DNA of 64,000 bases from a virus (taxonomy: Duplodnaviria > Heunggongvirae > Uroviricota > Caudoviricetes), in IMG/VR virus record IMGVR_UViG_3300047317_001031, positions 1 through 64,000 of that record. One strand, written 5' to 3'. A program made the position numbers and the translations under genes. The notes under the pieces were generated by a model. That model was given only the letters and a program-made list of their open reading frames with translations. It had not been told where the DNA came from and ran no database searches. Below, piece after piece: positions 1 to 52,322 of the stretch (position 1 is the stretch's first letter; each line of letters opens with the position of its first letter).

Positions 1-23
1 CCCACCAACTCACGACTAGATAT

Positions 24-98
24 GCAGACGTAGGCAAGCGGAAAGCCGTCGCATTTTCACTGCGAAGATCGCCGGTTCGAATCCGGTCGTCTGTACCA
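24..98 (+). tRNA. tRNA-Glu (anticodon UUC)
   Basis: 75-nt cloverleaf by eye: acceptor gcagacg/cgtctgt, perfect anticodon stem tcgca/tgcga with loop ttttcac (U33, A37), T-arm gccgg-ttcgaat-ccggt, 3' CCA encoded. Confidence 0.7.
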
Positions 99-177
99 TC
101 ATGCTCCATTCGAATAACGGCAATTCGCGACTCCCTCTAAGTCGAAACGCGAGATCAACACTCGCATGGAGTACCAT

Positions 178-252
178 GTTCCCGTAGCTCAGAGGAAGAG
201 CAATTGGTTGATAACCAATAGGTCGAGTTTTCGAAACACTCCGGGAACACCA
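178..252 (+). tRNA. tRNA-Ile (anticodon GAU)
   Basis: Acceptor gttcccg/cgggaac, D-arm gctc-agaggaa-gagc, anticodon stem attgg/ccaat with loop ttgataa, T-loop ttcgaaa, CCA end. Confidence 0.75.
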
Positions 253-942
253 TCAAATTTCCACGACGATCGGTTCATTCAACGGTTCGTAAGCCTCCGT
301 GCAATGGGATGCATTCACGTACAAAATCCCGTCCCGCATTTCCTGGCCGTAGGAATGATGGATATGTCCCATGATTACTAATTTAGGTTTTACCCGTTTG
401 ATATGAAACAGAAGTTCTTTGCTTCCCGCATGTTTGAAACTATTTTTCTTACTATGATCGGGGCATAGATCCAATATCCCGTACGGCGGACCATGGCATA
501 TGAGGACATCCGTCCCAACCGGGATCTTAGAGAAGTGTTCATGCCCCTCGTTTGGCGTCTTATACATGAAGGCCCAATCGAAAAATTCAGGAGTCCATGG
601 GGTTCCCCAAAAACTTTTTCCCTCAACAGAAACGCTACTATCCCGTAAATATATGGATTCCCCGATATTTTCTTCCATCACGTTTTCAAAATAATACTTA
701 TAGCATGACTCTAAAAAAAGGCAATGGTTGCCGGCTACGAATAATTTCGTGGGATGGGGTTGACGATTCATCCAACGAACAAAATCCCAATGCTCCTTTT
801 CCGTTCCGCGTGCGGTTGCGTCGCCTGCATGTACGAGTACATCGCCGTAAGGAAGGGAATCCGGCAGATATCCGTGCGTATCGCTAATGCAAACTATTTT
901 CACGTTATGGATCTTGAGGAAGAAGAACGAAATCCCTTTCAT
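253..942 (-). CDS. calcineurin-like metallophosphoesterase
   Basis: Motifs ISDTHG, VHAGD, GNHC and GHIHH in order, typical of the MPP superfamily; ORF is wedged between two tRNA genes. Confidence 0.7.
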   Translation of the reverse strand: MKGISFFFLKIHNVKIVCISDTHGYLPDSLPYGDVLVHAGDATARGTEKEHWDFVRWMNRQPHPTKLFVAGNHCLFLESCYKYYFENVMEENIGESIYLRDSSVSVEGKSFWGTPWTPEFFDWAFMYKTPNEGHEHFSKIPVGTDVLICHGPPYGILDLCPDHSKKNSFKHAGSKELLFHIKRVKPKLVIMGHIHHSYGQEMRDGILYVNASHCTEAYEPLNEPIVVEI

Positions 943-943
943 C

Positions 944-1018
944 CGCGATTAGCTCAGTTGGGAGAGCGTCCCGTTTACACCGGGAAGGTCCACCGTTCGA
1001 TCCGGTGATTGCGGACCA
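944..1018 (+). tRNA. tRNA-Val (anticodon UAC)
   Basis: Acceptor ccgcgat/attgcgg (one G-U), D-arm agctcagttgggagagc, anticodon stem tcccg/cggga with loop tttacac, T-arm caccg-ttcgatc-cggtg, CCA. Confidence 0.8.
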
Positions 1019-1382
1019 TTACTTTCGCATGGTACAATCCAATAAATATGCGGCGAGGATCGGTAAGTATCGAGCGGGGTCTCATAAGCCTCGAAAAGCA
1101 CGGGCAGTACGTGCTCCCGCTACCAATTTTTAGGAGACGATCCGTGAGAACGAATCACCAAAGAGGGAGCACGGATCGCCGATCCGATTTTCGAACAAAA
1201 CTCCAATGGAGCATGACGCGCGTTCTTGCAAACGGAACGGCCTTTACGGTCGGAATTCAAGGTAACGATTTCACCGATGGGCAGCACGGATATGCTCGTT
1301 CCCGAAGGGGAGCAAAACATGCGATGCATTGTGCAGAACGTCGTGCGGCGAAAGAGTTTATCTCACGCGAGGAATCAATTAT

Positions 1383-1457
1383 CCGCGGCTAGCTCAGTGG
1401 GAGAGCGCTTCCTTGACACGGAAGAGGTCGAAGGTTCAATCCCTTCGCGGCGGACCA
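1383..1457 (+). tRNA. tRNA-Val (anticodon GAC)
   Basis: D-arm gctcagtgggagagc, anticodon stem cttcc/ggaag with loop ttgacac, T-arm gaagg-ttcaatc-ccttc, acceptor 3' gcggcgg-a-CCA (one mismatch in acceptor stem). Confidence 0.8.
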
Positions 1458-1462
1458 TCATG

Positions 1463-1555
1463 GGCGAGTAGCTCAGAGAAAGAGCGGCGTTGAAAAACGC
1501 GTTAGAGTTTTCCCTGAAATTCTAGATGGAGTAGGGGGAAATGGCGGGGGTTTAA
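1463..1555 (+). ncRNA. tRNA-like RNA lacking a canonical anticodon arm
   Basis: 5' gggcgag plus D-arm gctc-agagaaa-gagc and 3' T-arm ggggg-tttaatt-ccccc plus tttgccc-t-CCA pair as a tRNA frame. The anticodon position holds a GNRA-tetraloop hairpin gcgtt-GAAA-aacgc followed by a ~35-nt insertion. Confidence 0.4.
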
Positions 1556-1583
1556 TTCCCCCTTTGCCCTCCAAAATCATTAT

Positions 1584-1660
1584 GCGGAAGTAGCTCAGTT
1601 GGCTAGAGCGTCTCCTTGCCAAGGAGAAGGTCGCGTGTTCGAGTCGCGTCTTCCGCACCA
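1584..1660 (+). tRNA. tRNA-Gly (anticodon GCC)
   Basis: Acceptor gcggaag/cttccgc, D-arm gctcagttggctagagc, anticodon stem tctcc/ggaga with loop ttgccaa, T-loop ttcgagt, CCA. Confidence 0.85.
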
Positions 1661-1671
1661 AGAAACCATAC

Positions 1672-1746
1672 GCGGGTGAATTGTTGATGGTTGCAAACGG
1701 GTCTTCCAAGCCTGGAGACCGGATTCGAATTCCGGCACCCGCACCA
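1672..1746 (+). tRNA. tRNA, anticodon unresolved (atypical anticodon arm)
   Basis: Perfect acceptor gcgggtg/cacccgc-a-CCA and T-arm ccgga-ttcgaat-tccgg. The anticodon region gggtcttccaagcctggagacc only folds as a bulged stem with a 6-nt loop by eye, possibly containing CCA (Trp-like). Confidence 0.5.
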
Positions 1747-1754
1747 TTTTTATT

Positions 1755-2306
1755 TTGATTGAGAGGAGCCGTATGAGCGCAAGTTGCTTAGTCCTTAATA
1801 GTACGTACGAACCACTCAACATAGCGACGATTGCCCGTGCCGTGCGGCTCGTTCTCGCGGGGAAGGCGGAGGTCGTACAAGATCGCGGTCGTGTATCTTC
1901 GCCGACCGTTTCCTTTCCGCTCCCTTCGATCATCCGCATGTTGTACTACATCAAGCACCGTCGTAAGCGTGTTCCTTTAACGAAGAAGAACGTTCTCTTG
2001 AGGGATAATTACAAGTGCGGATATTGCGACGATGCTATTGAACCGCGAGAGGCGACGGTTGATCATATCGTTCCTCGTAGTGCGGGCGGTACGTCTAGCT
2101 GGGAAAACCTTATCGCATCTTGCTCACCCTGCAACGGACGTAAGCGCGATAGGACCCCGGCACAAGCGAAGATGCCGTTGCTCAGAAAGCCGCCTAGGGA
2201 ACCGAAATTTATCCCGTTCGTATTGGTTCGCAGACATACCGAAGATCACGAATGGGCGAAGTATCTGAACCTATGGAATATCTCGATAGAAGAACGCGTC
2301 GTCTAA
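1755..2306 (+). CDS. HNH endonuclease
   Basis: YKCGYCDD...VDHIVPRSAGGTSSWENL...CSPCNGRK: a CxxC-H-N-H-CxxC HNH nuclease core. Confidence 0.85.
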   Translation: MIERSRMSASCLVLNSTYEPLNIATIARAVRLVLAGKAEVVQDRGRVSSPTVSFPLPSIIRMLYYIKHRRKRVPLTKKNVLLRDNYKCGYCDDAIEPREATVDHIVPRSAGGTSSWENLIASCSPCNGRKRDRTPAQAKMPLLRKPPREPKFIPFVLVRRHTEDHEWAKYLNLWNISIEERVV

Positions 2307-2322
2307 GGCGCGTTTTTTCTCT
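2288..2322 (+). terminator. rho-independent terminator after HNH gene
   Basis: GC hairpin aacgcgtc-gtctaag-gcgcgtt followed by a tttttt run. Confidence 0.5.
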
Positions 2323-2339
2323 CGCATGGCCTTGACGCA

Positions 2340-3062
2340 ATCGTATATTGCATGTTTACATAATCGTGCCGGCGAGCCGGATGAGAACGGTTATCTTTAG
2401 GGAAGATAAGGGTCGGGTTCAAATCCCGATGCGCTTCGTAAGAGGCGTATAGTGTAGTGGTAGCACGTAACCCCGTTTTCGACTTTTCGCCCGTTGGTGC
2501 CAAAGTTTTAGGAGTGCGCCGGATGAAGATGGTTAACTAGCAAGCAACGGGTCGCGGGTTCGATCCCCGCCATCGCCCTCACGGGAGGTGTAGCTCAGTG
2601 GTAGAGCAGTCGCATAAATCGCCATCCTCAAACTTTTCGCCCACTCCTCCGATTTCGGGAGCGAGCCGGATGACGAAGGTTCTCTTCGAACGATCTCCTT
2701 CATCAAACTTTTCGCCCGCTCCACCAACCTTTTGAGAACGAGCCGGATGGGTCAACGGTTATCGGATAAAAAGCCGGTCCTTGTGATTGGTTTGAAAGAC
2801 GGTTCAATCCCGTCGCCCGTTCCCGAAACTTCGCCCGTTCTATCATACCCCCAGAGTGAGCCGACTTGGAACGGTTATCTTGGTTCGATTCCGAGGGCAC
2901 CAACCGGGGGAAACCTCGTAAGAGCCCTGCTCAAATTGGCGAGCGCTCCGTTCTGAACCATTCGCCCACTCTGCATCATTTTACGTCCCGCCGAGCCGGA
3001 GACGATGGGTTATCTGCCAAATACGACCCCATCGTTATCATTTCGCCCGGCGGGCTCTGGAG
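2340..3062 (+). ncRNA. array of about 6 degenerate tRNA-like repeat units (candidate Y-RNA/YrlA-like RNAs)
   Basis: Recurring modules: tagtgtagtggtagcac and tagctcagtggtagagca D-arm-like segments, T-arm-like ggttcaaatcc, ggttcgatcc and ggttcaatcc, a conserved gagccggatg box (6 copies) and an AACTTTTCGCCC box (6 copies). No unit folds into a complete canonical cloverleaf by eye. The region lies directly upstream of the Ro60/Rsr gene. Confidence 0.35.
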
Positions 3063-3069
3063 ATTCCCC

Positions 3070-4773
3070 ATGCATTTAGCCGAACTTGGTCATCGCTTTG
3101 ACGCAACGCCGCAAACGGAGCAAGCAGATCCGCGCGAGGTCCAAAATAACGCCGGAGGGTTCGTCTTCGCGGTAGATGAATGGACGCGCCTGGATAGATT
3201 CTGCATTCTCGGAACTGCGGAACCGACGTATTACACGGATGCGCGCAAGCTTACGAAAGATAACTTTGCACACGTCAGCGTAATGATTAAAGCGCATGGC
3301 GTCGACGTCGTGAAGCGTGTCGTTGATATTTCCGTTTCCGGGCGTGCGGCGAAACAAGAATACGCGATCTTCGTTCTCGCCATGTGTGCGGGAGCCGAGG
3401 ATGTTGATGTCCGTCGTGCCGCACTTGACGCGCTGCCGAAGGTGTGTCGTACGGGTTCGACGTTGCTTTTGTTTGCGTCGTACGTTGAGCAGTTCCGCGG
3501 ATGGGGTCCGACTCTTTGTGACGGCATCCGAAATTGGTATAACGGAAAGGACGTGTCGGATCGTCTTGCTTACCAGGTTTTGAAATATCAGAACCGTTAT
3601 GGCTGGACGCATCGGGATCTGCTTCGTTTGGCGCATGTGAATCCGATCGTGACGGGAGAACCAAGCACGTTCAACTCAACGGAAGTTAAGCCTTATTCCC
3701 TTACATCCGAGCGTGATCGTCTTTATGCTTGGATTACGGGAAAGAAGGACGCGCCCACGACGTACGACCTTCCGATCATCGTAAAGGTATACGAACGCGC
3801 ACATGCGGCCAAGGAAATTGATTTCGAGTCGCTTGATGATCTCACGCATGAGATGATTCCGACCGATTGGAAAAAGAGCGGCGACGTTTGGACGAAGTTG
3901 TTGGGGAGAATGCCTCTCACGGCGATGATCCGCAACTTGGCGACCATGACCGTTTCGGGTGCGCTTGCTCCTGGCTCTCCAGGGGCGCATCGTGTGGTTT
4001 CTGCCTTGGGCGATGCGGAACACCTTCGCAAGTCTCGTGTCCATCCTGCGGCGATTCTCACGGCTTTGGCGGTGTATCGTTCGGGCAAGGGCATCAAGGG
4101 ATCGCAGACATGGATTCCGACTCCTGAAGTCGTGCAGGCGCTTGATGCGGCATTCTACCTCGCATTCCCGAATGTCGTACCTGCCGGCAAGCGTACGTTA
4201 ATCGGTTTGGACGTATCGGGATCAATGGAATTTCCGCTTAGTGCGCTTCCTGCATTGTCGTCTCGTGAGGCGACTGCGGCGCTCGCAATGCTTATGGTCG
4301 CGACGGAGCCGGAAGTCCAGGTTTACGGATTCACGGCGAACGAACGTGGATACGGCGGTCATTGGAGCAAGGGCGAGCCGAATATGACGCAGATCCCGAT
4401 GCATCGCGGACAGCATATCCCTGACGTATGTTCGTACGTAGCGCGCCTACCCATGGGCGGAACGGATTGTGCCACGCCGATGAACTACGCCCTCGCGAAT
4501 CGTATTCCCGTGGATACGTTCGTCATCATGACTGATAATGAAACGTGGGCTGGGAATATCCATCCGATGGAGGCGCTCCGCAAGTATCGCCGGGAAATGG
4601 GAATTCCGGCACGGCTTGCGGTGATTGGAACGACTGCGACGGAATTCTCAATCGCAGATCCAGACGATGCGGGAACTATGGATTTCGTCGGCTTTGATGC
4701 GGCGCTACCGATCATGCTCAACGACTTCTCGCGCGGTGGTCCGCATCCTCACGAAGTTGAAAACGAAGGCTAA
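3070..4773 (+). CDS. rsr: Ro60/Rsr ortholog (TROVE domain plus C-terminal vWA)
   Basis: N-terminus MHLAELGHRFDATPQTEQ...NNAGGFVFAVDEWTRLDRFCILGTAEPTYY matches the conserved Ro60/Rsr TROVE N-terminus. C-terminal vWA MIDAS motif LIGLDVSGSM. GGAGA RBS 7 nt upstream of the ATG at 3070. The ORF-track start at 2866 lies inside the tRNA-like repeats and is rejected. Confidence 0.8.
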   Translation: MHLAELGHRFDATPQTEQADPREVQNNAGGFVFAVDEWTRLDRFCILGTAEPTYYTDARKLTKDNFAHVSVMIKAHGVDVVKRVVDISVSGRAAKQEYAIFVLAMCAGAEDVDVRRAALDALPKVCRTGSTLLLFASYVEQFRGWGPTLCDGIRNWYNGKDVSDRLAYQVLKYQNRYGWTHRDLLRLAHVNPIVTGEPSTFNSTEVKPYSLTSERDRLYAWITGKKDAPTTYDLPIIVKVYERAHAAKEIDFESLDDLTHEMIPTDWKKSGDVWTKLLGRMPLTAMIRNLATMTVSGALAPGSPGAHRVVSALGDAEHLRKSRVHPAAILTALAVYRSGKGIKGSQTWIPTPEVVQALDAAFYLAFPNVVPAGKRTLIGLDVSGSMEFPLSALPALSSREATAALAMLMVATEPEVQVYGFTANERGYGGHWSKGEPNMTQIPMHRGQHIPDVCSYVARLPMGGTDCATPMNYALANRIPVDTFVIMTDNETWAGNIHPMEALRKYRREMGIPARLAVIGTTATEFSIADPDDAGTMDFVGFDAALPIMLNDFSRGGPHPHEVENEG

Positions 4774-4775
4774 AC

Positions 4776-4808
4776 AAAGCGCGTCTCAAACGAGGCGCGC
4801 TTCTTTAC
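4776..4808 (+). terminator. rho-independent terminator after rsr
   Basis: Hairpin agcgcgtctc-aaac-gaggcgcgct followed by ttcttt. Confidence 0.5.
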
Positions 4809-4814
4809 TATGGA

Positions 4815-5618
4815 GTGAAAATGCTTCCTCTCTGTGATCCGAAGCGATATCCGTTACTCGAAGAATACAAATATCCGCTCCTCTTCGTTACGATAAGCGG
4901 TTCGCATCTCTACGGGTTTTCCTCACCGGATTCCGATATCGACCTTCGCGGGGCTCATGCCGCATGGACGGAAGAGCTCGTCGGACTTTGTACGCCGAAA
5001 CAAACCCTTGAGCGCATGGAGGGCGATAACGATATTGTTACGCATGAGATCGGGAAGTTTTGTTTACTTGCGTTGAAAAATAGCGGATATTGCCTTGAGC
5101 AAGCGATGTCCCCGCTCGTCGTTATCACGTCCGGATGGTTTGCGGATCTCCGAGAAATACTTCCTCGTTGCGTTACGAAGAAGCATACGAAGCATTACCT
5201 CGGCTTCACGAATTCGCAGCTTTCGATTTTGCGACGGAAACCTGATAAGCAGATCAAGGTTATCTTGTATATGTTTCGTGCGCTCATGACGGGCATTCAC
5301 TTTGCTCGTACGAGACAGGTCGAAGCAAATATCCTCACCCTCAACGAGACGTTCAAGTTCACGTTCATTGACGAATTGGTGCGTGAGAAAATCGAGGGGA
5401 AGGAGAAGGCGGAATTAGCGGCGGGACATTCGCTTGAATTTTACATGCGAGAACAAGAGCGCCTTCTTGCTCAACTTGAATGTGAGATTTCCGCCTCTAG
5501 TTTGCCGGAAGAACTCCCCGATACCGTCATGGCGGAATTGAATAGACTTCTCATCCGTTTACGCCGGTTTCATTGGAAGAACCCGCTTCCCGGCGGAGGG
5601 ATCATCCTCGCTCGGTAA
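4815..5618 (+). CDS. Pol-beta superfamily nucleotidyltransferase (RlaP/YcgL-like, RNA-repair-associated type)
   Basis: N-terminal minimal nucleotidyltransferase signature VTISGSHLYGFSSPDSDIDLRG (GS...SDxD). Sits next to rsr. Confidence 0.5.
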   Translation: MKMLPLCDPKRYPLLEEYKYPLLFVTISGSHLYGFSSPDSDIDLRGAHAAWTEELVGLCTPKQTLERMEGDNDIVTHEIGKFCLLALKNSGYCLEQAMSPLVVITSGWFADLREILPRCVTKKHTKHYLGFTNSQLSILRRKPDKQIKVILYMFRALMTGIHFARTRQVEANILTLNETFKFTFIDELVREKIEGKEKAELAAGHSLEFYMREQERLLAQLECEISASSLPEELPDTVMAELNRLLIRLRRFHWKNPLPGGGIILAR

Positions 5619-5707
5619 AGCGCTTGACAACTTTGGGAATTTCATGGTTGGGTATGGATAGGCGACCCGCAAAGAGCGAACATCGCCGATCCGCATGGGA
5701 GTCATGC

Positions 5708-6793
5708 ATGAGCACGAAAGAATTCGACCTTCTCGTTTTCGTTGGCCGCTTTCAGCCGCCGCATCTCGGGCATCTTGCCGTTATTGAAGAGGCGCTCCGG
5801 CACTCTCAGAAATTACTCATTCTCGTAGGTTCTGCTAATCGTAGCCGGAGTTTACGTGATCCATTCTCGTTTGAGGAGCGGGCCGAAATGCTTCGTGCGA
5901 TGACGGGAGAAATACGAAAGAACGAATGCGGGATACTTGACATACGCCCCCTCAATGATCATCTCTATAATGATCCCGCATGGATCGAAGAAGTCCAGTC
6001 CAAGGTAACGGAAAGTCTTTCGTATATTCCTGGAGAGAAGAAGCGCGTCGGGATCATCGGCCATGCGAAAGATCATACCTCGTACTACCTTCGCGTTTTC
6101 CCTGGCTATGAGTGCGTTGATGTTGAGGGATATCATTCTCCGAATGTGGGGCTCCTGAATTCCACGATGATCCGTGAACTCGCATATGATTTTCTGACGA
6201 ATCAGGGAAATCGCGGTTGGGATTTATTCCATTTTCAGGACTATCTTCCCGAGCAAATGATCCGGCATTTCCAATATGCTTTAAAGTCGCCCGATATGCG
6301 CGGCGTAATCGCGGAGGCGGAATTCGTGAAGCGTTATAAGGACCAATGGAAATTTGCTCCGTATAAGCCGACCTTCAATACCGTAGATGCGGTCGTGCAG
6401 TGCTGTGGGCACGTTTTGATGGTCATGCGCGGCGAACAGCCTGGGGCTGGGAATTTCGCGCTTCCAGGCGGGTTTATAGGGCAAAATGAGCCGCTTCTCG
6501 ACGCCTGCATACGTGAACTTTTCGAAGAGACGCAGATTTCGGTTCCCCGCCCGGTTGTTCTGGGTTCATTGCATCGTCGTGAGGCGCGCGTGTTTGATGA
6601 TCCGCATCGTTCATCCCGCGGGCGCACGATCACGCATGCCTATCGTTTTGACCTTGCCGACAAGGAACTGCCAAGGGTCCGAGGCGGAGACGATGCGGCG
6701 GCGGCAATGTGGATTCCGATTAACGCCGTCAAACCGGAGAAGACCTTTGAGGACCACGCCTTCATCATCCGCGCCATGTTAGGGGTTTCGTAG
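5708..6793 (+). CDS. bifunctional NMN adenylyltransferase / Nudix ADP-ribose pyrophosphatase (NadM-Nudix, NatV-like)
   Basis: Start is the ATG at 5708, in frame within ORF 5573..6793. N-terminal rossmann HxGH motif FVGRFQPPHLGHLAVI. C-terminal Nudix box GNFALPGGFIGQNEPLLDACIRELFEETQI. Confidence 0.85.
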   Translation: MSTKEFDLLVFVGRFQPPHLGHLAVIEEALRHSQKLLILVGSANRSRSLRDPFSFEERAEMLRAMTGEIRKNECGILDIRPLNDHLYNDPAWIEEVQSKVTESLSYIPGEKKRVGIIGHAKDHTSYYLRVFPGYECVDVEGYHSPNVGLLNSTMIRELAYDFLTNQGNRGWDLFHFQDYLPEQMIRHFQYALKSPDMRGVIAEAEFVKRYKDQWKFAPYKPTFNTVDAVVQCCGHVLMVMRGEQPGAGNFALPGGFIGQNEPLLDACIRELFEETQISVPRPVVLGSLHRREARVFDDPHRSSRGRTITHAYRFDLADKELPRVRGGDDAAAAMWIPINAVKPEKTFEDHAFIIRAMLGVS

Positions 6794-8205
6794 TGTTGAA
6801 TCCGTTGCTTGCCGTTGACTCCTACAAGTCAAGCCATTTTCTCCAGTACCCGCCTGGGACAACGCGCGTCTCTTCATATATCGAATCGCGCGGAGGACCG
6901 TTCAAGGCTTCACGGTTTTTCGGCTTACAGGGGATTATCAAGAAATACCTCATTGATTCTTTTGATGAGGAAGGCGTTAATCGCGCTAATCTCCTGTTTA
7001 ATAACCATGGATTGCCTTTCAATGACAAATGGTATGAATTGTCACGCAGGCGTAAACATGACGGGAAGTTTGCTTTCCCTATAGAAATCCAAGCGGTTCC
7101 CGAGGGCATGGATATTCCCACCGGAAACGTTCTCATGCAGGTCGTCAATACCGATCCAGAGTTCGCATGGCTCACGTCGTACGTCGAAACGCTCTTGATG
7201 CAGGTGTGGTATCCGACGACGGTTTGTACGTTGAGTGCAGAGATTCGTGCAATTCTCATGGAGCGACTTGAAGAAACGTGCGATGATCCGAAGTCGGTTA
7301 TCCCGTTCCTCTTGCATGACTTCGGCTGCCGCGGAGTATCCTCAATGGAGTCAGCAGGGATCGGGGGATTAGGGCATCTCGTGAATTTCCGTGGTACGGA
7401 TACGATTCCGGCACTTGTTGAAGGTCAGGAGTATTATCACGAACCTATGGCTGGATTCTCAATTCCGGCGATGGAGCATTCAACCGTAACGGCATGGGGT
7501 CGCGATGGCGAAGCGAGAGCGTTTCGTAATATGCTCCAACGTTTCGGCGGACCAGGCAAGACACTGGCTATGGTTGTGGATTCGTATGACCTTTTTCATG
7601 CGGTTCGCTGCATAGTCGGCGATGAACTAAAGGATGAAATTATCAATAGCGGTTCGCGCGTCGTCGTACGCCCCGATAGCGGTGATCCACGCGTGATCGT
7701 TCCTAAAATTCTGCGTATCCTCAACGATTGTTTTGGAGGCGAAAATAACCATAAGGGCTATCGTGTACTTCATCCTGCCGTGCGTGTGATCCAAGGAGAC
7801 GGTATGGATATTGAATCCATTCGTGAAACAGGCGATGCAGTATGCGCTGCCGGTTTCTCGACGGAGAATGTTACATACGGCCTCGGCGGCGGATTGCTTC
7901 AGAAAGTCCATCGCGATACGGGGAAGTTTGCGATGAAGGCTTCGGCGATCGAGATTGACAGCATATGGTACGACGTTTACAAAGATCCTTTGACAGATCC
8001 CGAAAAACGTTCAAAGCGCGGAAGATTAGCGCTCATATGCTATGGACAAGAATGGAACGACTATAAGGTGAAGACCGGCATCGAAACAGTCCGTATTGAG
8101 CAAATGCACGATCGCGAAAACCTCTTGCGCCCGGTATATCGTGACGGAGAACTTCTCATTGATGATCCGCTTGAAACGATTCGGCGGCGCGCAGGGACCC
8201 TCTAA
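6793..8205 (+). CDS. nadV: nicotinamide phosphoribosyltransferase (Nampt/NadV)
   Basis: N-terminus NPLLAVDSYKSSHF is the conserved NadV start. Length 470 aa. GTG start overlaps the upstream stop codon by 1 nt. Confidence 0.85.
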   Translation: MLNPLLAVDSYKSSHFLQYPPGTTRVSSYIESRGGPFKASRFFGLQGIIKKYLIDSFDEEGVNRANLLFNNHGLPFNDKWYELSRRRKHDGKFAFPIEIQAVPEGMDIPTGNVLMQVVNTDPEFAWLTSYVETLLMQVWYPTTVCTLSAEIRAILMERLEETCDDPKSVIPFLLHDFGCRGVSSMESAGIGGLGHLVNFRGTDTIPALVEGQEYYHEPMAGFSIPAMEHSTVTAWGRDGEARAFRNMLQRFGGPGKTLAMVVDSYDLFHAVRCIVGDELKDEIINSGSRVVVRPDSGDPRVIVPKILRILNDCFGGENNHKGYRVLHPAVRVIQGDGMDIESIRETGDAVCAAGFSTENVTYGLGGGLLQKVHRDTGKFAMKASAIEIDSIWYDVYKDPLTDPEKRSKRGRLALICYGQEWNDYKVKTGIETVRIEQMHDRENLLRPVYRDGELLIDDPLETIRRRAGTL

Positions 8206-8702: not shown

Positions 8703-8777
8703 GCCGGCCTAGCTCAAAGGCAGAGCATCGAACTCTAAAATCGAGGGATGCGGGTCCGATTCCCGTGGCCGGCACCA
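8703..8777 (+). tRNA. suppressor tRNA, anticodon CUA (reads UAG)
   Basis: Acceptor gccggcc/ggccggc-a-CCA, D-arm gctc-aaaggca-gagc, anticodon stem tcgaa/atcga (31-39 A-A) with loop ctCTAaa (U33, A37), T-arm gcggg-tccgatt-cccgt. Confidence 0.7.
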
Positions 8778-8778
8778 T

Positions 8779-8853
8779 GCCGAAGTAGCTTAACGTTAGA
8801 GCATCGCGGGTCACCCTGCGAGGGACGTGGTTCAATTCCATGCTTCGGCACCA
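8779..8853 (+). tRNA. tRNA with non-canonical (8-nt) anticodon loop, identity unresolved
   Basis: Acceptor gccgaag/cttcggc-a-CCA, D-arm gctt-aacgtta-gagc, T-arm cgtgg-ttcaatt-ccatg. Anticodon stem tcgcg/tgcga leaves loop ggtcaccc. Confidence 0.55.
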
Positions 8854-15690: not shown

Positions 15691-17514
15691 ATGCTTAAAG
15701 CGAAGGCGCGTGATGCGTCTGAGGAATCACCGACAGAAGGGCGCTTCGTTCATGAAGTTCCTTTCGTCGTTGATTTTGATGCGGATCGCGAGATTCGTCT
15801 TCGCTTTGAAGTCGCGCGGAAAATTTATAATGCTTTGCTAGGAGAAGCACTTCGTCGCGTTCGTCGCGTTCGTCATGCGATGCGTCAGCATTATCCTGTT
15901 TTTCAGAAATGCAAGGCTGAAGCGACCCTAGCGATTACGGAAAACGAACTTCATCCGGCGAGCCTTGCGGCACGAAAGATCACTAAAAAGGCATATTCGC
16001 CGTACAATGAACTTCGTAAACCATTACTACGCGAATATGGATGCTCTCGATTCGGCCTGTCCGCATATGGAACGAAGCTCTCGCGTGATACGCCGTTATG
16101 GGCGCGACAACATGCGATAGGAGCGACGGTCGTCCAGGAACTTGTTCGGCGTGCATGGTTGACTGCTGAAAAGAATCTCCTTAACCCGCGGATTAAGTGT
16201 AAGTTCATGCGGTACGGAGAACTACGTAGCGTCGAATCCATGAACGAAGCGGATGCTATACGCATTGCCGATGATAGAATCATTTGGTCTTCCGGCAAAG
16301 GCGGCGGCGTTATCTCCATGCGGATGCGCCTTGATCGCAAGGGCCGTGACTGGGTAGAGTATTTCGCCTCTTATGCGGAGATCATTAAGACGCGTCTTGT
16401 CCGTCGCGATATCAACGGCAGGAAGCGCGGAGCGGCGCAGATTGTGCTTGCCGGCGATCCCGTTGATCGTCCCTGGATTACTACGATTCCCGGCGACGAT
16501 ATTGGGATTGATCTTGGCCTTTCCGTCGTCGCGATCGATTCTGATTCTGAGAGCGCAATATATTCCCTTACCACGGTAACTCCTGAGCAGCGCGCGGAAC
16601 TTGCGCTCAAGCAACGGCGTACGAACCGTGCTTTAGATCGCTCTCGCCGTGCATCCAATCCCGATAAGTATGATGAAAAGGGACGGGCTCTCCACCGCAG
16701 AACGCACAAGCGGCTTAAGACTGAGAGCGCCCCTCGTCTACGGTGGAATTTCTCAACGGCATATAGGCAGATGAAGGCTGATTATGCTGAAGCCTCGCGG
16801 ATTGTTACTGAGCGGCGCAAGAACGCAACGCGTACGCTCGTAAATCATATCGCTACGCTTGGGAATGTCGCCGTTATCGAGAACCTGTCGCTACAAAAAT
16901 GGCAACAGGAGTACGGTAAAGCAACGGGATTTGCGCCGGGGGAATTCACCGCAGCGCTTGATCGGCGTATGAAATCCCTTAACGGCGATCTGCATAAGAT
17001 TCCCGCGCATACCGCGAAGCTTTCGCAGTTTTGCATTGCGTGTGGAGTATACGAAAAAAGAGATTTTGAGATTCGCGTTCTTGAGCGACGGCAACGTTGT
17101 TCGTCCTGCGGGTCCAATCAGGGCGGCGTGCAAGCCGACTTGGTTCAAGCTTTCCTCGCGCGGCATGTTCGTGTCGAGGGAACTATCGACGTTAGTCAAG
17201 CTCAAAAGGCTTGGCCGGGTGCGAGCATGCGCCTAGGTTCGGCATCGTCGGTAGTAAAAAACGCAGCAAAGACCGTGCTTGCGCGGTCGCGTCGGTGGAG
17301 AAATCGGCTGGCGGCAGAGCAGCGTGCCGTACAAAGCGGATCAGCATCGCCCCTAGGTCCCGAGTCCTTGTGTCTTGGGAAGCGCGGCGAAAGCGTCTCC
17401 GTCAAAGTCCCTATTGATCTTCGAGCGGCCAGGTGGGGCTCGCCTCGTGCTGGCCCGCTCGATCCTGCTACGATAAGGAAAAAGCGACCTCCTCGTTCCG
17501 TTCCCATTGGTTAG
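15691..17514 (+). CDS. TnpB/Cas12-like RuvC nuclease, putative compact type V CRISPR effector
   Basis: TnpB-like N-terminus (RFVHEVPFVVDF...RKIYNALL), RuvC-I DIGIDLGLSVVAI, RuvC-II VAVIENLSLQKW, zinc finger CIACG...CSSCG, RuvC-III QADLVQAFLARHV. The last ~110 aa are low-complexity and Arg-rich. A CRISPR array begins 53 nt downstream. Confidence 0.75.
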   Translation: MLKAKARDASEESPTEGRFVHEVPFVVDFDADREIRLRFEVARKIYNALLGEALRRVRRVRHAMRQHYPVFQKCKAEATLAITENELHPASLAARKITKKAYSPYNELRKPLLREYGCSRFGLSAYGTKLSRDTPLWARQHAIGATVVQELVRRAWLTAEKNLLNPRIKCKFMRYGELRSVESMNEADAIRIADDRIIWSSGKGGGVISMRMRLDRKGRDWVEYFASYAEIIKTRLVRRDINGRKRGAAQIVLAGDPVDRPWITTIPGDDIGIDLGLSVVAIDSDSESAIYSLTTVTPEQRAELALKQRRTNRALDRSRRASNPDKYDEKGRALHRRTHKRLKTESAPRLRWNFSTAYRQMKADYAEASRIVTERRKNATRTLVNHIATLGNVAVIENLSLQKWQQEYGKATGFAPGEFTAALDRRMKSLNGDLHKIPAHTAKLSQFCIACGVYEKRDFEIRVLERRQRCSSCGSNQGGVQADLVQAFLARHVRVEGTIDVSQAQKAWPGASMRLGSASSVVKNAAKTVLARSRRWRNRLAAEQRAVQSGSASPLGPESLCLGKRGESVSVKVPIDLRAARWGSPRAGPLDPATIRKKRPPRSVPIG

Positions 17515-20512: not shown

Positions 20513-20893
20513 CTACGTGGTTAGCGTGTTTGATCCTATAGGATGCCTAGATGCCTCATTCGCACGACGATTCCGCTCTGCCGCGAGCATGTCTTCGATG
20601 AAATGGGAATAGGCGGTACTACGTTGACCATTTGGTCGCACATGACCACGCCGCGCTTCTTCAACAAACGCATCTAAATCCGGGGGCAAATCAATCGTCT
20701 TTTTTCGGTATATTCCGCGCCCCTTGGGACCAGGACGCTTCGGAGCCCTCTCTACTGATAATATGACGGGAACAGCTTCTTCCGCCTTCTCGCCTTCTTT
20801 TCCGATCGGACTCTCAGAAGGCGCAGAATGTTTCTTTAGTACGCTCTTCATATCAAACTTATTCGTGGTTGAACTCGTCTTATGCACGGGCAA
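20513..20893 (-). CDS. ParG-like centromere-binding protein (C-terminal RHH)
   Basis: Downstream partner of ParA on the same strand; C-terminal TIDLPPDLDAFVEEARRG is RHH-like; overlaps the ParA stop. Confidence 0.5.
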   Translation of the reverse strand: MPVHKTSSTTNKFDMKSVLKKHSAPSESPIGKEGEKAEEAVPVILSVERAPKRPGPKGRGIYRKKTIDLPPDLDAFVEEARRGHVRPNGQRSTAYSHFIEDMLAAERNRRANEASRHPIGSNTLTT

Positions 20894-21656
20894 GGTACTC
20901 CTCGGCTAGGGCGATATAGTCTTGTGCTCCATGTGAGCGGCAATCATAGGCGATAACTGAACATCTCAGAAGGTAGGATTCCGGGATACGAACATTATTC
21001 CTTATCACCGTCTGAAATGTAGGGAACGAGGATTCTGCTCTTAGCTCCGTTAGACTTTCAGGATCTATCCGATTTCTCGCATCGTATTGCGTTGCGAGGT
21101 ATGTTCCACGCGGCCTACCATGCGGCATCAGATCCGGGTCGTCCACAAGCTGAGAAAGTAGTGCATGCATATCCGCAACCCCCTCAAGCGCCTTCGGCTT
21201 CGTTTCTACTGGAATGAGCAATTCGTCGGCGGCGATGATCGCATTACTCGTAAGAATCCCCGGCGACGGCGGAGCGTCGATAAGCGCGATATCGTAATGA
21301 TCAGAAACCATTCGAAGGCATTTCCGTAGCCGAAGAACGGCGGTCGCTGGATTCTTCATGAGCATAATCTCGGCTCCGGCTGTACTCAAAGATCCGTGGG
21401 CAACATCTACTCCGGGAGATCGGCTTGGGGCGATACATTCAGGGAAAAGCCTTGGATCATCTAGCGCATCGGCTACTCGACATGAACTTCCCGTTCCGAT
21501 GTATGTCGTCGCATTTGCTTGAGCGTCAAGATCAACCACAAGAACTCGCTTGCCATGCATCCCAAGAGCATGTGCAAAATTGACGGCTGTCGTCGTCTTC
21601 GCTACGCCGCCCGCGATATTCACAACTGAAATGACGTTCATCTTGCATTCTCGCAT
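20880..21656 (-). CDS. parA: ParA/Soj partition ATPase
   Basis: Deviant Walker A NIAGGVAKTTTAVNFAHAL plus VLVVDLDAQANAT. Confidence 0.85.
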   Translation of the reverse strand: MRECKMNVISVVNIAGGVAKTTTAVNFAHALGMHGKRVLVVDLDAQANATTYIGTGSSCRVADALDDPRLFPECIAPSRSPGVDVAHGSLSTAGAEIMLMKNPATAVLRLRKCLRMVSDHYDIALIDAPPSPGILTSNAIIAADELLIPVETKPKALEGVADMHALLSQLVDDPDLMPHGRPRGTYLATQYDARNRIDPESLTELRAESSFPTFQTVIRNNVRIPESYLLRCSVIAYDCRSHGAQDYIALAEEYLARA

Positions 21657-50773: not shown

Positions 50774-51463
50774 ATGCTCGGGGACATGAGGCACATCGTA
50801 AGCTACCTGCGGGTTTCGACAAGGGAGCAAGGGCTCGGGATTGAGGCGCAGCGTTCGGTCGTCTTGGCCTACTGCGAGGCGACGGGTTCGGAAGTCGTCA
50901 GCGAATTCGCGGAAATGGAAAGCGGGAAGAAAAACGATCGTCCGCAGTTAGCCCTCGCGATAGCCGACGCGCAACGGCGGAAGACGGTTCTCGTCGTCGC
51001 GAAGCTTGACCGGCTTTCCCGCGATGTTCATTTCATTTCAGGGCTACTAAAGTCGGACGTGGAATTCTACTTCTGTGACTTGCCCCAGGCAAATCGGATG
51101 CTACTGCACATTATGGCGTCGGTCGCAGAGGGCGAACGCGAGATGATCTCACAACGGACGAAAGCGGCCCTACAAGCGGCCAAGGCGCGCGGGGTGAAGT
51201 TGGGGGGGCAGAACCCCGCATGTCGCGGGAACCTCTCTCCTGGGGCGATTCTAGCGGGCCATGCGAAAGCGGCGAAAGCGATCTCGGCGAAGGCGCGCAA
51301 GGGCGATGCTCTTTTCCTTCCGGACATCCTGGCGATGCAGGCGACCGGGCTGTCATTCGAGGCGATTGCGAAGGAGCTGAACGCGAAAGGGCTAACCGGC
51401 CCGCGCGGCAACCCCTGGCACGCGATGCAAGTTTACCGAGCGATAAAACGCGCGAATCCGTAA
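50774..51463 (+). CDS. serine recombinase (resolvase/invertase family)
   Basis: YLRVSTREQ catalytic-Ser motif and resolvase N-terminal domain layout. Confidence 0.85.
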   Translation: MLGDMRHIVSYLRVSTREQGLGIEAQRSVVLAYCEATGSEVVSEFAEMESGKKNDRPQLALAIADAQRRKTVLVVAKLDRLSRDVHFISGLLKSDVEFYFCDLPQANRMLLHIMASVAEGEREMISQRTKAALQAAKARGVKLGGQNPACRGNLSPGAILAGHAKAAKAISAKARKGDALFLPDILAMQATGLSFEAIAKELNAKGLTGPRGNPWHAMQVYRAIKRANP

Positions 51464-51467
51464 CCCC

Positions 51468-52322
51468 ATGCGGGAGAACCGTTCCCGTGCTCCTAGCCCG
51501 AGGCATTGCGCTTCGGGCTTTTTTGTTTTCCACACCGAAAGACAGGTTTTTTTGTTACCCCATCCCCATCAAGCGCCCAAGGATGAGCTTGCCGGCGCGC
51601 TCCCCGTTGTTCTTCGCCAAGTCGGCGAGGCAACCGCGCAAACCGTGAACGCCCGGAACTTGCATGTTTTCTTGCAGGTGAACACGCGCTTCAATGATTG
51701 GATCGTTCGCCGCCTTGATCAATACGATTTCACGGAGGGACTTGATTACTCACGCGAGAGCAGTAACGATTTCCACTTAACGCTCGACATGGCGAAAGAA
51801 TTCTGCATGCTTGAGCGTAACGACCGAGGCAAGCAGGCTAGGCGCTATTTTCTCGCATGTGAACGGCAACTAAAGGCGGGGGTTGCTCTCGATCTCAACG
51901 ACCCTCGGCAGTTACGTGCGGCGCTTGGTAGCTATACCGAAAAAGTGATCGCCCTAGAGTCGAAAATAGAGGCGGATCGTCCCAAGGTTGCCTTTGCCGA
52001 CGTCGCCGCGCGGGCGGACGGTGAACTCGTTCCCACGGATTTTGCTAAGGAGGTTGCTCCGTCGCTCGGGGTAGGCATGCGCGAGGTTCTTGCCCGCCTA
52101 GTAAGTGATCGTATTCTTTTCCGCCGCGGGAAGCGGTTGCGCCCATATCAGCATTGGATTGATTCCGGGTATCTTCGCCTCGTCGAAATCGTCGGTTCGC
52201 ATCCCAGGACGGGGGAGCCCGTACTCTACCCGCAGTCAGTGATTACGCCGCAGGGCTACCAGTGGATTCTTGACCGTTGGAACGTCGACGGGCGCCATGA
52301 AGTATACGATTCCGGAGATTAA
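51468..52322 (+). CDS. phage antirepressor (Bro-N/ORF6N plus KilA-C)
   Basis: VNARNLHVFLQVNTRFNDWIVRRL is Bro-N/AntA-like; C-terminal FAKEVAPSLGVGMREVLARLVSDRILFRR is KilA-C-like. Confidence 0.6.
   Translation: MRENRSRAPSPRHCASGFFVFHTERQVFLLPHPHQAPKDELAGALPVVLRQVGEATAQTVNARNLHVFLQVNTRFNDWIVRRLDQYDFTEGLDYSRESSNDFHLTLDMAKEFCMLERNDRGKQARRYFLACERQLKAGVALDLNDPRQLRAALGSYTEKVIALESKIEADRPKVAFADVAARADGELVPTDFAKEVAPSLGVGMREVLARLVSDRILFRRGKRLRPYQHWIDSGYLRLVEIVGSHPRTGEPVLYPQSVITPQGYQWILDRWNVDGRHEVYDSGD

What the first reader, a model, noticed from the sequence alone, without database searches (positions are those of the whole stretch)
2340..4773. Ro60/Rsr ortholog preceded by a ~700-bp array of degenerate tRNA-like repeats: candidate Y-RNA (YrlA-like) locus inside a tRNA island
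The gene at 3070-4773 has the conserved Ro60/Rsr TROVE N-terminus and a C-terminal vWA MIDAS motif. In bacteria and some phages, rsr is flanked by Y RNAs whose effector domain mimics tRNA. Here about six units carry D-arm-like and T-arm-like modules (tagctcagtggtagagca; ggttcaaatcc, ggttcgatcc, ggttcaatcc) plus two conserved boxes, gagccggatg and AACTTTTCGCCC. None folds into a complete cloverleaf. A tandem family of tRNA-mimic RNAs of this length next to rsr does not match known Y-RNA loci. They could be Rsr-bound decoys or processing substrates.
Basis: partly seen in the sequence, partly recalled or inferred. Interest (0 to 1): 0.7.

Follow-up and report, generated by a model that had tools for sequence, protein, structure and literature searches.

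The report
Six tandem Y RNAs before rsr
A phage-like element carries a Ro60/Rsr gene preceded by six tandem genes for Y RNAs, the small RNAs that bind Ro60; this kind of locus is already known, and the unusual points are the high copy number and an animal-like Y RNA stem.

Summary
Window 2366-3056 holds six head-to-tail units of 65-139 nt, 8-13 nt apart. They end 14 nt before a full-length Ro60/Rsr gene (3070-4773, TROVE + vWA/MIDAS).

Each unit pairs its 5' and 3' ends into a long stem with a bulged C, a 4-6-nt bulge on the opposite strand, and GGUUAUC nine bases after the bulged C's neighbouring G. This is the Ro60-binding module of Y RNAs. The flanking stems covary strongly: 86% of cells pair against 38-47% in slid controls, and 15 of 22 pairs show compensatory changes.

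Only the apical modules differ:
- three are YrlA-type tRNA mimics (T arm, closed acceptor-like stem, D arm);
- one has a T arm only;
- two are plain hairpins.

A covariance model built from these stems hits nothing else in the 64-kb window. In 160 other rsr loci, all 120 hits lie on the rsr strand.

Arrays of 3-6 such units turn out to be common next to rsr in uncultured phages and in bacteria. Four isolated actinophages I checked have 2-3, none annotated. This is therefore a large member of a known kind, not a new system. The mechanism is inferred: a co-transcribed set of adaptor RNAs for the element's own Ro ring.

The parts
2293..2318 (+). Possible intrinsic terminator closing the upstream HNH gene: AACGCG / CGCGTT stem, 10-nt loop, T run.
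   Evidence: Read directly. The consensus scan did not list it because its loop limit is 8 nt. Inference only.
2332..2337 (+). TTGACG, a candidate -35 element for the array-rsr transcript.
   Evidence: TTGACG also sits just upstream of the first unit in relatives L004 and L005. In L005 it reads TTGACG-N17-GATACT. No good -10 at standard spacing was found in the window. Inference.
2366..2501 (+). Y RNA unit 1, YrlA type. Ro-binding stem with bulged C at 2378, then a hairpin, a T arm (about 2412-2428), a closed acceptor-like stem, and a D arm (about 2449-2466).
   Evidence: Fold -53 kcal/mol, z = -2.8. R1 51.7 bits, E = 2e-10. Partial Rfam YrlA match at 18 bits over the T and D arms. Orthologous to L004 5496-5630.
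2510..2648 (+). Y RNA unit 2, YrlA type. Bulged C at 2520, T arm about 2553-2571, D arm 2588-2606.
   Evidence: Rfam YrlA RF02553 38.5 bits, E = 9e-7, full-length model match but below the gathering score of 69. Fold.
2658..2722 (+). Y RNA unit 3, a short hairpin type with no tRNA-like module. Bulged C at 2667.
   Evidence: R1 59 bits, E = 3e-12. Fold.
2735..2842 (+). Y RNA unit 4. Ro-binding stem plus a hairpin and a T arm (GGTTCAATCC at 2801), with no D arm. Bulged C at 2744 and an 11-nt rather than 9-nt spacer.
   Evidence: It was not used to build R1, yet R1 finds it at 33.7 bits, E = 7.5e-6. Fold.
2852..2973 (+). Y RNA unit 5, YrlA type. Bulged C at 2862, T arm about 2878-2894, long closed stem, D arm GCUC/GAGC with a GG-containing loop.
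   Evidence: R1 51.9 bits, E = 2e-10. Fold.
2987..3054 (+). Y RNA unit 6, a short hairpin type. Bulged C at 2997.
   Evidence: R1 63 bits, E = 3e-13. Rfam nematode stem-bulge RNA family RF01656 37.8 bits against a gathering score of 38, E = 5e-6. Fold z = -2.8.
3058..3062 (+). GGAGA, the likely ribosome-binding site of rsr, starting 4 nt after the stem of unit 6 (3054).
   Evidence: Read. Homologues align from residue 13 of the ATG-3070 product.
3070..4773 (+). rsr, a Ro60 orthologue of 567 aa: a TROVE/HEAT ring plus a vWA domain with the DVSGSM MIDAS motif.
   Evidence: Pfam TROVE 7e-38 and vWA_Ro60 2.8e-53. PDB 9nen, 1yvp and 2nvo at E = 4e-96 to 8e-93. The MIDAS residues are invariant in alignment A3.
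4777..4802 (+). Terminator-like hairpin (11 pairs) right after the rsr stop codon. It probably ends the array-rsr transcription unit.
4821..5618 (+). RlaP-family nucleotidyltransferase (RNA-ligase-associated Pol-beta NTase). It is a neighbour and a possible functional partner in RNA repair.
   Evidence: Pfam PF10127 1.5e-35. Its role is taken from PMC7824862. The link to the Y RNAs is inference.

Best explanation
The region is a six-gene array of Y RNAs sitting directly in front of the element's own Ro60/Rsr gene.

Shown:
- Each unit pairs its 5' and 3' ends into a long stem. The stem has a variable lower helix, a conserved helix interrupted by a single bulged C, a 4-6-nt bulge on the 3' strand, a variable upper helix, and GGUUAUC at its top.
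- This stem is the Ro60-binding module of Y RNAs.
- The apical parts differ between units: three tRNA elbow mimics (T arm, closed stem, D arm), one with a T arm only, and two plain hairpins.

Inferred:
- One promoter near 2332 drives a single transcript that ends at the hairpin at 4777-4802.
- Host nucleases cut the 8-13-nt U-rich spacers, releasing six stable RNAs and the rsr mRNA.
- Each RNA docks through the shared stem on the outer face of one Rsr ring. There it gates the ring's central cavity, and its apical module tethers the ring to a different partner.
- By analogy with D. radiodurans RYPER and the Thermus phage phiLo complex, the hairpin types would recruit host PNPase. The tRNA-like types would engage proteins that recognise the tRNA elbow.
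- Set next to a tRNA island, a metallophosphoesterase and an RlaP nucleotidyltransferase, the likely job is RNA quality control or repair, probably of tRNA, during infection.
For: Architecture:
- All six units, and 15 units from three related contigs, fold the same way.
- On a 13-unit stem alignment, 86.4% of cells pair against 38-47% when partners are slid by 1-3 columns.
- On that alignment, 15 of 22 pairs carry compensatory changes, and the covariation score is 0.705 against 0.10-0.15.

Specificity:
- Model R1 hits only the array within the 64-kb window.
- In 80 viral and 80 bacterial rsr loci it gives 72 + 48 hits, all on the rsr strand and nearly all within 1 kb upstream of rsr.

Family resemblance:
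- Unit 2 matches Rfam YrlA end to end (38.5 bits, E = 9e-7).
- Unit 6 matches the nematode stem-bulge (Y RNA homologue) family at 37.8 bits.
- The T arm covaries across 10 tRNA-like units.

Conservation of the arrangement:
- The closest Rsr relatives carry arrays in the same place and on the same strand: L004 (67% identity) with 4 units, L005 (56%) with 6, and L007 (55%) with at least 5.
- L005 also shares the HNH ... array-rsr-NMNAT/Nudix-NAMPT gene order.

Protein: rsr is a complete Ro60 homologue with the MIDAS motif.

Literature:
- Y RNAs are encoded next to rsr on the same strand. Each studied species has one tRNA-like and one hairpin Y RNA. A polycistronic precursor is known (PMC4201824).
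- Phage phiLo Ro60 binds two upstream Y-like RNAs and forms ternary complexes with host PNPase (PMC12135203).
Against: - There is no expression, processing or binding data for this element. Transcript ends, stability and Rsr binding are all inferred.
- No unit reaches a curated Rfam threshold: YrlA 38.5 against 69, RF01656 37.8 against 38, and no Y_RNA RF00019 match at E <= 10.
- The published GNCGAA(N)G motif is matched with one substitution (GCCGGAUG) in most units.
- No convincing -10 element was found.
- The stem alignment was curated by hand with the structure in mind, which inflates the percentage paired. The slid controls and the independent recovery of unit 4 and the L005 units mitigate this.
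- The partners of the apical modules are unknown.
- No RNA ligase or PNPase gene turned up among the window ORFs I scanned.
Confidence: 0.85

Rival explanations
1. The array acts mainly in cis, as a structured 5' leader of the rsr mRNA. Rsr would bind its own leader and repress translation, unit 6 being the obvious candidate because its stem ends 3 nt before the ribosome-binding site. The units would not be released as stable trans-acting RNAs.
For: The array abuts rsr. Unit 6 ends at 3054 and GGAGA starts at 3058. No terminator-like site lies between the array and rsr. This reading is compatible with the Y RNA reading rather than exclusive of it.
Against: In relatives the last unit lies further from the start codon: about 25 nt in both L004 and L005. 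Some loci carry the units downstream of rsr, and in Salmonella the Y RNAs are 3' of rsr (10.1101/312249). Six different apical modules are hard to explain by autoregulation alone. Characterised Y RNAs accumulate as discrete RNAs (PMC4201824).
Confidence: 0.08
2. The units are decayed tRNA genes, or tRNA pseudogenes with introns or permutations, left over from the neighbouring tRNA island. They would have no Rsr-related function.
For: T-arm and D-arm strings are present. ARAGORN calls a tRNA-Pro at 2362-2437. The tRNA model gives a weak 23-bit hit. A real tRNA island lies at 24-1740.
Against: Two of the six units have no tRNA-like sequence at all. What repeats is a non-tRNA stem, and it covaries. 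The T-before-D order fits YrlA, not tRNA. The same stem is found on the rsr strand in 120 of 120 hits across unrelated genomes. No tRNA-model hit in the array reaches the threshold.
Confidence: 0.02
3. The tRNA-like units work independently of Rsr as decoys or sponges for host tRNA-targeting defence nucleases or tRNA-modifying enzymes. The shared stem would only be a stabilising clamp.
For: This is a phage-like context with a tRNA island, RlaP and NAD-salvage counter-defence genes. YrlA modules are substrates for TruB, DusA and RNase P (PMC4201824).
Against: The stem keeps the specific Ro-site features (bulged C, opposite bulge, fixed 9-nt spacing, GGUUAUC) across phyla. That argues for protein recognition rather than a generic clamp. 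The link to rsr is strict. Units without a tRNA module keep the same stem.
Confidence: 0.05

Closest known systems
Bacterial and phage YrlA/YrlB-type Y RNAs next to rsr (Chen et al. 2014, PMC4201824; Rfam RF02553)
   Same: - Encoded beside rsr on the same strand.
- The 5' and 3' ends pair into a Ro-binding stem carrying a GNCGAA-like motif.
- A tRNA-like module in the order T arm, closed stem, D arm with canonical T and D loops sits alongside plain-hairpin Y RNAs in the same locus.
- Phage examples exist.
   Different: - Six units here, against the two or so characterised per species.
- The motif is GCCGGAUG, with G in place of A.
- Scores fall well below the Rfam YrlA threshold (38.5 against 69).
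- The top of the stem reads GGUUAUC rather than the GGgaaCUA of the Rfam YrlA consensus.
Thermus phage phiLo Ro60 with Yrl1 and Yrl2 (PMC12135203)
   Same: A phage-encoded Ro60 with Y-like RNAs in the noncoding region directly upstream. Binding and a ternary complex with host PNPase were shown in that system.
   Different: phiLo has two units, this element six. The phiLo protein did not appear among PDB sequence matches to this Rsr at E <= 0.001, so the proteins are distant. No tRNA-like modules were reported there in the text I read.
D. radiodurans Yrn2-tRNAAsp-Yrn1 locus and the RYPER complex (PMC4201824; 10.1101/312249)
   Same: Several small RNAs lie upstream of rsr and are made from a polycistronic precursor together with a tRNA. 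The Y RNA tethers Rsr to PNPase.
   Different: Fewer canonical Y RNAs (two, plus RNAs a, b and d that bind Rsr less strongly). No phage context. Stem sequences differ.
Vertebrate Y RNAs and nematode stem-bulge RNAs (PMC4726728; Rfam RF01656)
   Same: [quoted passage not shown]
- The spacing is the same as in the RF01656 consensus: CCG-N9-GGUUAUC.
- Bacterial units from L118 and L107 pass that family's gathering score.
   Different: - The 3'-strand bulge is 4-6 nt here against 3 nt in vertebrates.
- The animal RNAs are separate Pol III genes with La-binding U tails. These are tandem units in a bacterial-type operon.
- There is no match to Rfam Y_RNA RF00019.
- The loop domains are unrelated.
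Unannotated Y-like units in isolated actinophages (Sparky, Cali, BearBQ, FuzzBuster)
   Same: The layout is the same, and in Sparky a tRNA island precedes the Y units and the Ro gene. The GCCG/GUCG-N9-10-GGUUAYC half-site is shared, and each has one tRNA-like unit plus hairpin units.
   Different: They carry 2-3 units rather than six, and their Ro proteins are only 41-47% identical to this one.

Membership tests
Prokaryotic Y RNA (Ro60/Rsr-associated ncRNA) | Encoded adjacent to rsr on the same strand. | tested here: met
   The array at 2366-3054 ends before rsr at 3070, both on the + strand. The same holds for 120 of 120 model hits in other loci.
Prokaryotic Y RNA (Ro60/Rsr-associated ncRNA) | The 5' and 3' ends pair into a long stem that contains a conserved bulged helix, the Ro60 binding site. 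| tested here: met
   Folds. Covariation: 86% paired, 15 of 22 pairs compensatory. The bulged C is invariant.
Prokaryotic Y RNA (Ro60/Rsr-associated ncRNA) | GNCGAA(N0-1)G motif in the 5' strand (Chen 2014). | tested here: inconclusive
   The window units read GCCGGAUG, GCCGACUU or GCCGGAGA, each with at least one mismatch to the motif. The consensus over 185 related units is GGGCCGRAG, which includes the published motif.
Prokaryotic Y RNA (Ro60/Rsr-associated ncRNA) | Bound by Rsr in vivo, with accumulation that depends on Rsr. | not testable with these tools
   Needs RIP, EMSA or northern blots.
YrlA subfamily (Rfam RF02553) | An effector module that mimics tRNA: T arm, closed acceptor-like stem, D arm, with conserved T-loop and D-loop nucleotides. 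| tested here: met
   Met for units 1, 2 and 5 only. T loops are UUCAAAU, UUCGAUC and UUCGAUU, and the D loops contain GG. The T arm covaries. Unit 4 has a T arm only, and units 3 and 6 have none.
YrlA subfamily (Rfam RF02553) | Score at or above the curated gathering threshold of 69 bits. | tested here: not met
   The best is 38.5 bits for unit 2. Unit 1 scores 18.2 bits and unit 5 gets no hit. Related loci score 28-41 bits.
Metazoan Y RNA / nematode sbRNA (RF00019, RF01656) | Lower-stem helix with a single bulged C, an opposite-strand bulge, and a UUAUC motif. | tested here: met
   The features are as described in PMC4726728.
Metazoan Y RNA / nematode sbRNA (RF00019, RF01656) | A curated Rfam threshold is reached. 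| tested here: not met
   RF01656 gives 37.8 bits against 38 for unit 6. RF00019 gives no hit at E <= 10. Two bacterial relatives do pass RF01656.
Metazoan Y RNA / nematode sbRNA (RF00019, RF01656) | Individual Pol III genes with a 3' oligo-U tail bound by La. | tested here: not met
   These are tandem units 8-13 nt apart in a prokaryotic operon-like layout.
Ro60/Rsr protein | TROVE (HEAT-repeat ring) plus a C-terminal vWA domain with a MIDAS motif. | tested here: met
   Both Pfam models score above their cut-offs. DVSGSM, T465-D466 and D489 are invariant in alignment A3. Full-length PDB matches. The NCBIfam Rsr equivalog scores 423.6 bits, below its cut-off of 900, so this is a divergent member.
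Genuine tRNA genes or pseudogenes | A cloverleaf with the acceptor stem formed by the 5' and 3' ends, and a tRNA-model score of at least 29 bits. | tested here: not met
   The only hit scores 23.1 bits and spans two units. The single ARAGORN call overlaps the Ro-binding strand.

The most novel reading that the evidence does not exclude
Prokaryotic Y RNAs of this type may be true homologues of animal Y and stem-bulge RNAs rather than merely analogues.

- They carry the full animal stem signature: a bulged C, an opposite-strand bulge, a fixed 9-nt spacer and GGUUAUC. This holds across phages and at least seven bacterial phyla.
- UUAUC has so far been tied to DNA-replication activity in animals. 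On this reading it would be an ancient element linked to Ro60.
- Multi-gene arrays of 3-6 units with different apical modules would be a general 'adaptor library' that couples one Ro ring to several effectors. Phages would exploit this during infection.
Probability: 0.3. Interest if true: 0.6.

Novelty: new member of a known kind. Interest (0 to 1): 0.4.

Why it matters
- It gives a compact natural set of six Y RNAs that share one Ro-binding stem but differ in their effector modules. That is a convenient system for asking what the variable modules recruit.
- Y-RNA arrays appear to be under-annotated. None of the four isolated phages I checked has them annotated. The tRNA model also produces above-threshold chimeric "tRNA" calls across neighbouring units in some bacterial arrays.
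- The animal-type GGUUAUC signature in prokaryotic units bears on whether bacterial and animal Y RNAs share ancestry. A 2015 review states they do not (PMC4726728).
- None of this changes the known picture of what a Ro60-Y RNA system is.

Tried and rejected
- A structure-only scan (G[CT]CG plus lower and upper helices, with no GUUAUC requirement) gave dozens of hits on both strands and was useless. Adding the half-site motif fixed the specificity.
- Running R1 with filters off lost all units with long interiors, so counts from R1 are lower bounds. R1 with default filters also missed unit 2, L004 unit 2 and L007 units 2-3.
- I tested whether each locus has its own version of the Ro box, which would suggest co-evolution with the cognate Rsr. 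Within-locus identity is only slightly higher than between-locus identity (0.72 against 0.59). The variable stems show a similar excess (0.36-0.41 against 0.27-0.29), so there is no clear signal.
- RNAalifold on ten full-length tRNA-like units recovered the stems and the T arm but not the D arm, because MAFFT misaligned it.
- The supplementary tables of Chen 2014 and the two Wolin-lab reviews are not held. I therefore could not find a published maximum number of Y RNAs per locus.
- The window shows no close DNA or protein match among isolated phages; the best Ro identity is 47%. No virion genes turned up among the ORFs I scanned, so 'phage' rests on gene content and on the related contigs.
Full report
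**What is there**

Window 1-2306 holds a tRNA island. ARAGORN and Rfam find Glu, Ile, two Val and Gly, plus two weaker Rfam tRNA hits. The same stretch carries a metallophosphoesterase on the minus strand and an HNH endonuclease gene.

After the HNH stop codon comes a hairpin with a T run, then a TTGACG hexamer.

From 2366 to 3054 there are six head-to-tail units of 65-139 nt, separated by 8-13-nt U-rich spacers. A GGAGA ribosome-binding site follows at 3058, and an ATG at 3070 opens a 567-aa ORF.

That ORF matches Pfam TROVE (7e-38) and vWA_Ro60 (2.8e-53). It aligns end to end with human Ro60, Xenopus Ro60 and D. radiodurans Rsr at E = 4e-96 to 8e-93. An 11-pair terminator-like hairpin follows the stop codon.

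Downstream lie an RlaP nucleotidyltransferase, a bifunctional NMN adenylyltransferase/Nudix protein and a nicotinamide phosphoribosyltransferase.

**Anatomy of the units**

Folded individually, all six units give the same outline:
- a variable lower helix of 6-9 bp;
- a conserved helix, 5' (A)GC-C-GGA paired with 3' UUC-GC(C), in which the middle C is bulged;
- a 4-6-nt bulge on the 3' strand;
- a variable upper helix of about 9 bp that ends in GG;
- UUAUC immediately after that.

In five of the six units the distance from the G after the bulged C to GGUUAUC is exactly 9 nt. In unit 4 it is 11 nt.

The interiors differ.
- Units 1, 2 and 5 carry a T arm, a closed stem and a D arm, with canonical T loops and GG-containing D loops.
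- Unit 4 has a hairpin and a T arm.
- Units 3 and 6 are simple hairpins.

**Is the structure real?**

I cut the interiors out of 13 units (five from the window, eight from relatives) and aligned the stems (A2).

| Measure (22 named pairs) | Observed | Control |
|---|---|---|
| Cells forming standard pairs | 86.4% | 38-47% with partners slid 1-3 columns |
| Pairs with compensatory double changes | 15 of 22 | 7-12 with partners slid |
| Covariation score | 0.705 | 0.10-0.15 with partners slid |
| Shuffles reaching the observed covariation score | 0 of 500 | - |

The alignment was curated with the structure in mind, which favours it. However, a covariance model built from it (R1) also recovered sequences it had never seen:
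- unit 4 (E = 7.5e-6);
- two L005 units that use a different, covarying version of the conserved helix, GGGU-C-GGA paired with UUC-AUCU;
- units in many other genomes.

Within the 64-kb window R1 has no hit outside the array better than E = 0.44.

**Related loci**

The closest Rsr proteins come from uncultured, phage-like contigs.

| Locus | Rsr identity | Contig length | Units upstream of rsr |
|---|---|---|---|
| L004 | 67% | 75 kb | 4 |
| L005 | 56% | 123 kb | 6 |
| L007 | 55% | 8 kb | at least 5, plus one cut by the contig end |

All three carry the array in the same position and on the same strand. L005 also keeps the HNH ... array-rsr-NMNAT/Nudix-NAMPT gene order. Window units 1, 2 and 6 have evident orthologues in L004, with compensatory changes in the internal stems.

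**Wider survey**

I fetched 80 viral and 80 bacterial rsr loci. R1 gave 72 and 48 hits at E <= 0.1. Every one is on the rsr strand, and nearly all lie within 1 kb upstream of rsr.

I then counted a 5' half-site regex, G[CT]CG-N9-11-[GCT]GTT[ACT][TCA][CT], in the 1.3 kb upstream of rsr.

| Units counted | 0 | 1 | 2 | 3 | 4 | 5 | 6 |
|---|---|---|---|---|---|---|---|
| Viral loci (n = 70) | 19 | 8 | 7 | 15 | 17 | 1 | 3 |
| Bacterial loci (n = 76) | 15 | 21 | 9 | 14 | 11 | 5 | 1 |

As controls, the opposite strand of the same region shows none in 66 of 70 viral and 58 of 76 bacterial loci (one in each of the others). The background on the same strand is 0.10-0.15 per kb.

Inspection of the top loci confirms mixed arrays of tRNA-like and hairpin units. 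These include Nocardia terrae and a Mycobacterium sp. MAG (a metagenome-assembled genome), both with 4 units, and a Capsulimonadaceae MAG with 6.

Across 185 units from 49 loci the consensus is GGGCCGRAG-N6-GGUUAUC. Positions that the regex left loose are still strongly conserved: -4 G 96%, +15 A 91%, +17 C 97%.

Four isolated actinophages have 2-3 units each, none annotated. In Sparky the units follow a tRNA island, as they do here.

Six units is therefore at the top of the observed range but not unique. L005, L048, L063, L069 and L107 also give six half-site matches, though one of L048's six lies 623 nt upstream of its five-unit array.

**Comparison with known systems**

The published picture (PMC4201824) is as follows:
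- Y RNAs lie next to rsr on the same strand.
- They have a long terminal stem that carries the Ro site.
- Each studied species has at least one tRNA-like Y RNA (YrlA) and one long hairpin with a small loop.
- D. radiodurans makes a polycistronic Yrn2-tRNAAsp-Yrn1 precursor.
- YrlA candidates were reported in 254 bacteria and 22 phages.

The YrlA module is a crystallographically confirmed tRNA mimic with a closed acceptor-like stem (bioRxiv 10.1101/312249). Thermus phage phiLo Ro60 binds two upstream Y-like RNAs and assembles with host PNPase (PMC12135203). TROVE proteins and RlaP are listed among jumbo-phage RNA-repair genes (PMC7824862).

The window fits this picture feature by feature. It fails only the curated score thresholds:
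- YrlA 38.5 bits against 69;
- RF01656 37.8 bits against 38;
- no RF00019 hit.

**A side result**

The stems look more like animal Y RNAs than the Rfam YrlA consensus does. [quoted passage not shown]

The RF01656 consensus printed reads GGUCCG-GAGUCGAUG-GGUUAUC. That is the same spacing as in these units.

In other loci, bacterial units hit RF01656 repeatedly, and two pass its gathering score: L118 (Candidatus Sungbacteria) at 41.4 bits and L107 at 38.4 bits. I found no paper in the held library that links UUAUC to prokaryotic Y RNAs. The same review calls the bacterial RNAs 'not homologous' with vertebrate Y RNAs.

**Mechanism**

Shown:
- the sequence architecture;
- covariation in the stems;
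- a strict positional and strand link to rsr;
- conservation of arrays in relatives;
- a complete Ro60 protein.

Inferred:
- co-transcription from a promoter near 2332 to the terminator at 4777-4802;
- endonucleolytic release of the units;
- one Rsr ring per Y RNA, bound through the shared stem;
- apical modules acting as tethers, with hairpins recruiting PNPase and tRNA mimics recruiting proteins that recognise the tRNA elbow;
- a role in RNA surveillance or repair during infection.

The close approach of unit 6 to the ribosome-binding site also allows Rsr autoregulation. I rate this a minor, non-exclusive rival.

**Nature of the element**

The window also encodes ParA, a serine recombinase, an antirepressor, repressor-like regulators, a RecE-like exonuclease and a TnpB-like protein. 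The related contigs carry DnaB, a methylase, CsrA, an Acb2/Tad1-like protein and a phage scaffold protein.

I read it as a large temperate phage or phage-plasmid. No virion gene turned up among the ORFs I scanned, so this is an inference.

**Verdict**

- The Y RNA interpretation is supported. The claim that the locus falls outside known Y-RNA loci is not.
- It is a large, heterogeneous member of a known kind.
- Two modestly new points are worth noting: multi-unit arrays are widespread and unannotated, and prokaryotic units carry the animal-type GGUUAUC stem signature.

Noticed in passing
window 1462-1570 and 1674-1740: Two extra Rfam tRNA hits (33.4 and 29.9 bits) that ARAGORN does not call. 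The first looks like a tRNA with an insertion of roughly 40 nt between the anticodon arm and the T arm.
   Followed up: no
window 8703-8777 and 8779-8853: A tRNA with a CUA anticodon, a potential amber suppressor that ARAGORN labels Pyl. Directly after it is a tRNA with an irregular anticodon loop. Whether the element reads TAG as sense was not checked.
   Followed up: no
window 5573-8205; also L005 7889-10374: A bifunctional NMN adenylyltransferase/Nudix gene plus a nicotinamide phosphoribosyltransferase gene lie just downstream of rsr (right after RlaP in the window). Both are also present in L005 and L006, which lack RlaP. Together they form an NAD+ salvage pair. From memory, similar pairs have been described as phage counter-defence against NAD-depleting immunity.
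   Followed up: partly
window 4821-5618: An RlaP (RNA-ligase-associated Pol-beta nucleotidyltransferase) gene next to rsr. No RNA ligase (RtcB or Rnl) was found among the window ORFs I scanned.
   Followed up: partly
L107 2162-2287, 2325-2432, 2652-2787; L163 2383-2504: The Rfam tRNA model gives above-threshold 'tRNA' hits (40-47 bits) that span 108-136 nt inside bacterial Y RNA arrays. These appear to be chimeras joining one unit's D arm to the next unit's T arm, which is an annotation hazard. The window's equivalent at 2444-2578 scores 23 bits.
   Followed up: partly
L118 2626-2887; L107 2799-2892: Bacterial hairpin-type units hit the nematode stem-bulge RNA family RF01656, twice above its gathering score (41.4 and 38.4 bits). 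One host is a Candidatus Sungbacteria (CPR) genome with three tandem units.
   Followed up: partly
L168 (Mycobacterium phage Sparky) 1619-1756: A 45-aa 'hypothetical protein' is annotated between the second Y-like unit and the Ro gene. The Y-like units themselves (around 1380-1605) are not annotated in any of the four isolated phages examined.
   Followed up: no
window 15691-17514, 20880-21656, 50774-52322: TnpB/OrfB-like, ParA-like, serine recombinase and antirepressor genes. They suggest a temperate phage or phage-plasmid lifestyle. No structural (virion) genes turned up among the ORFs I scanned in the 64 kb.
   Followed up: partly
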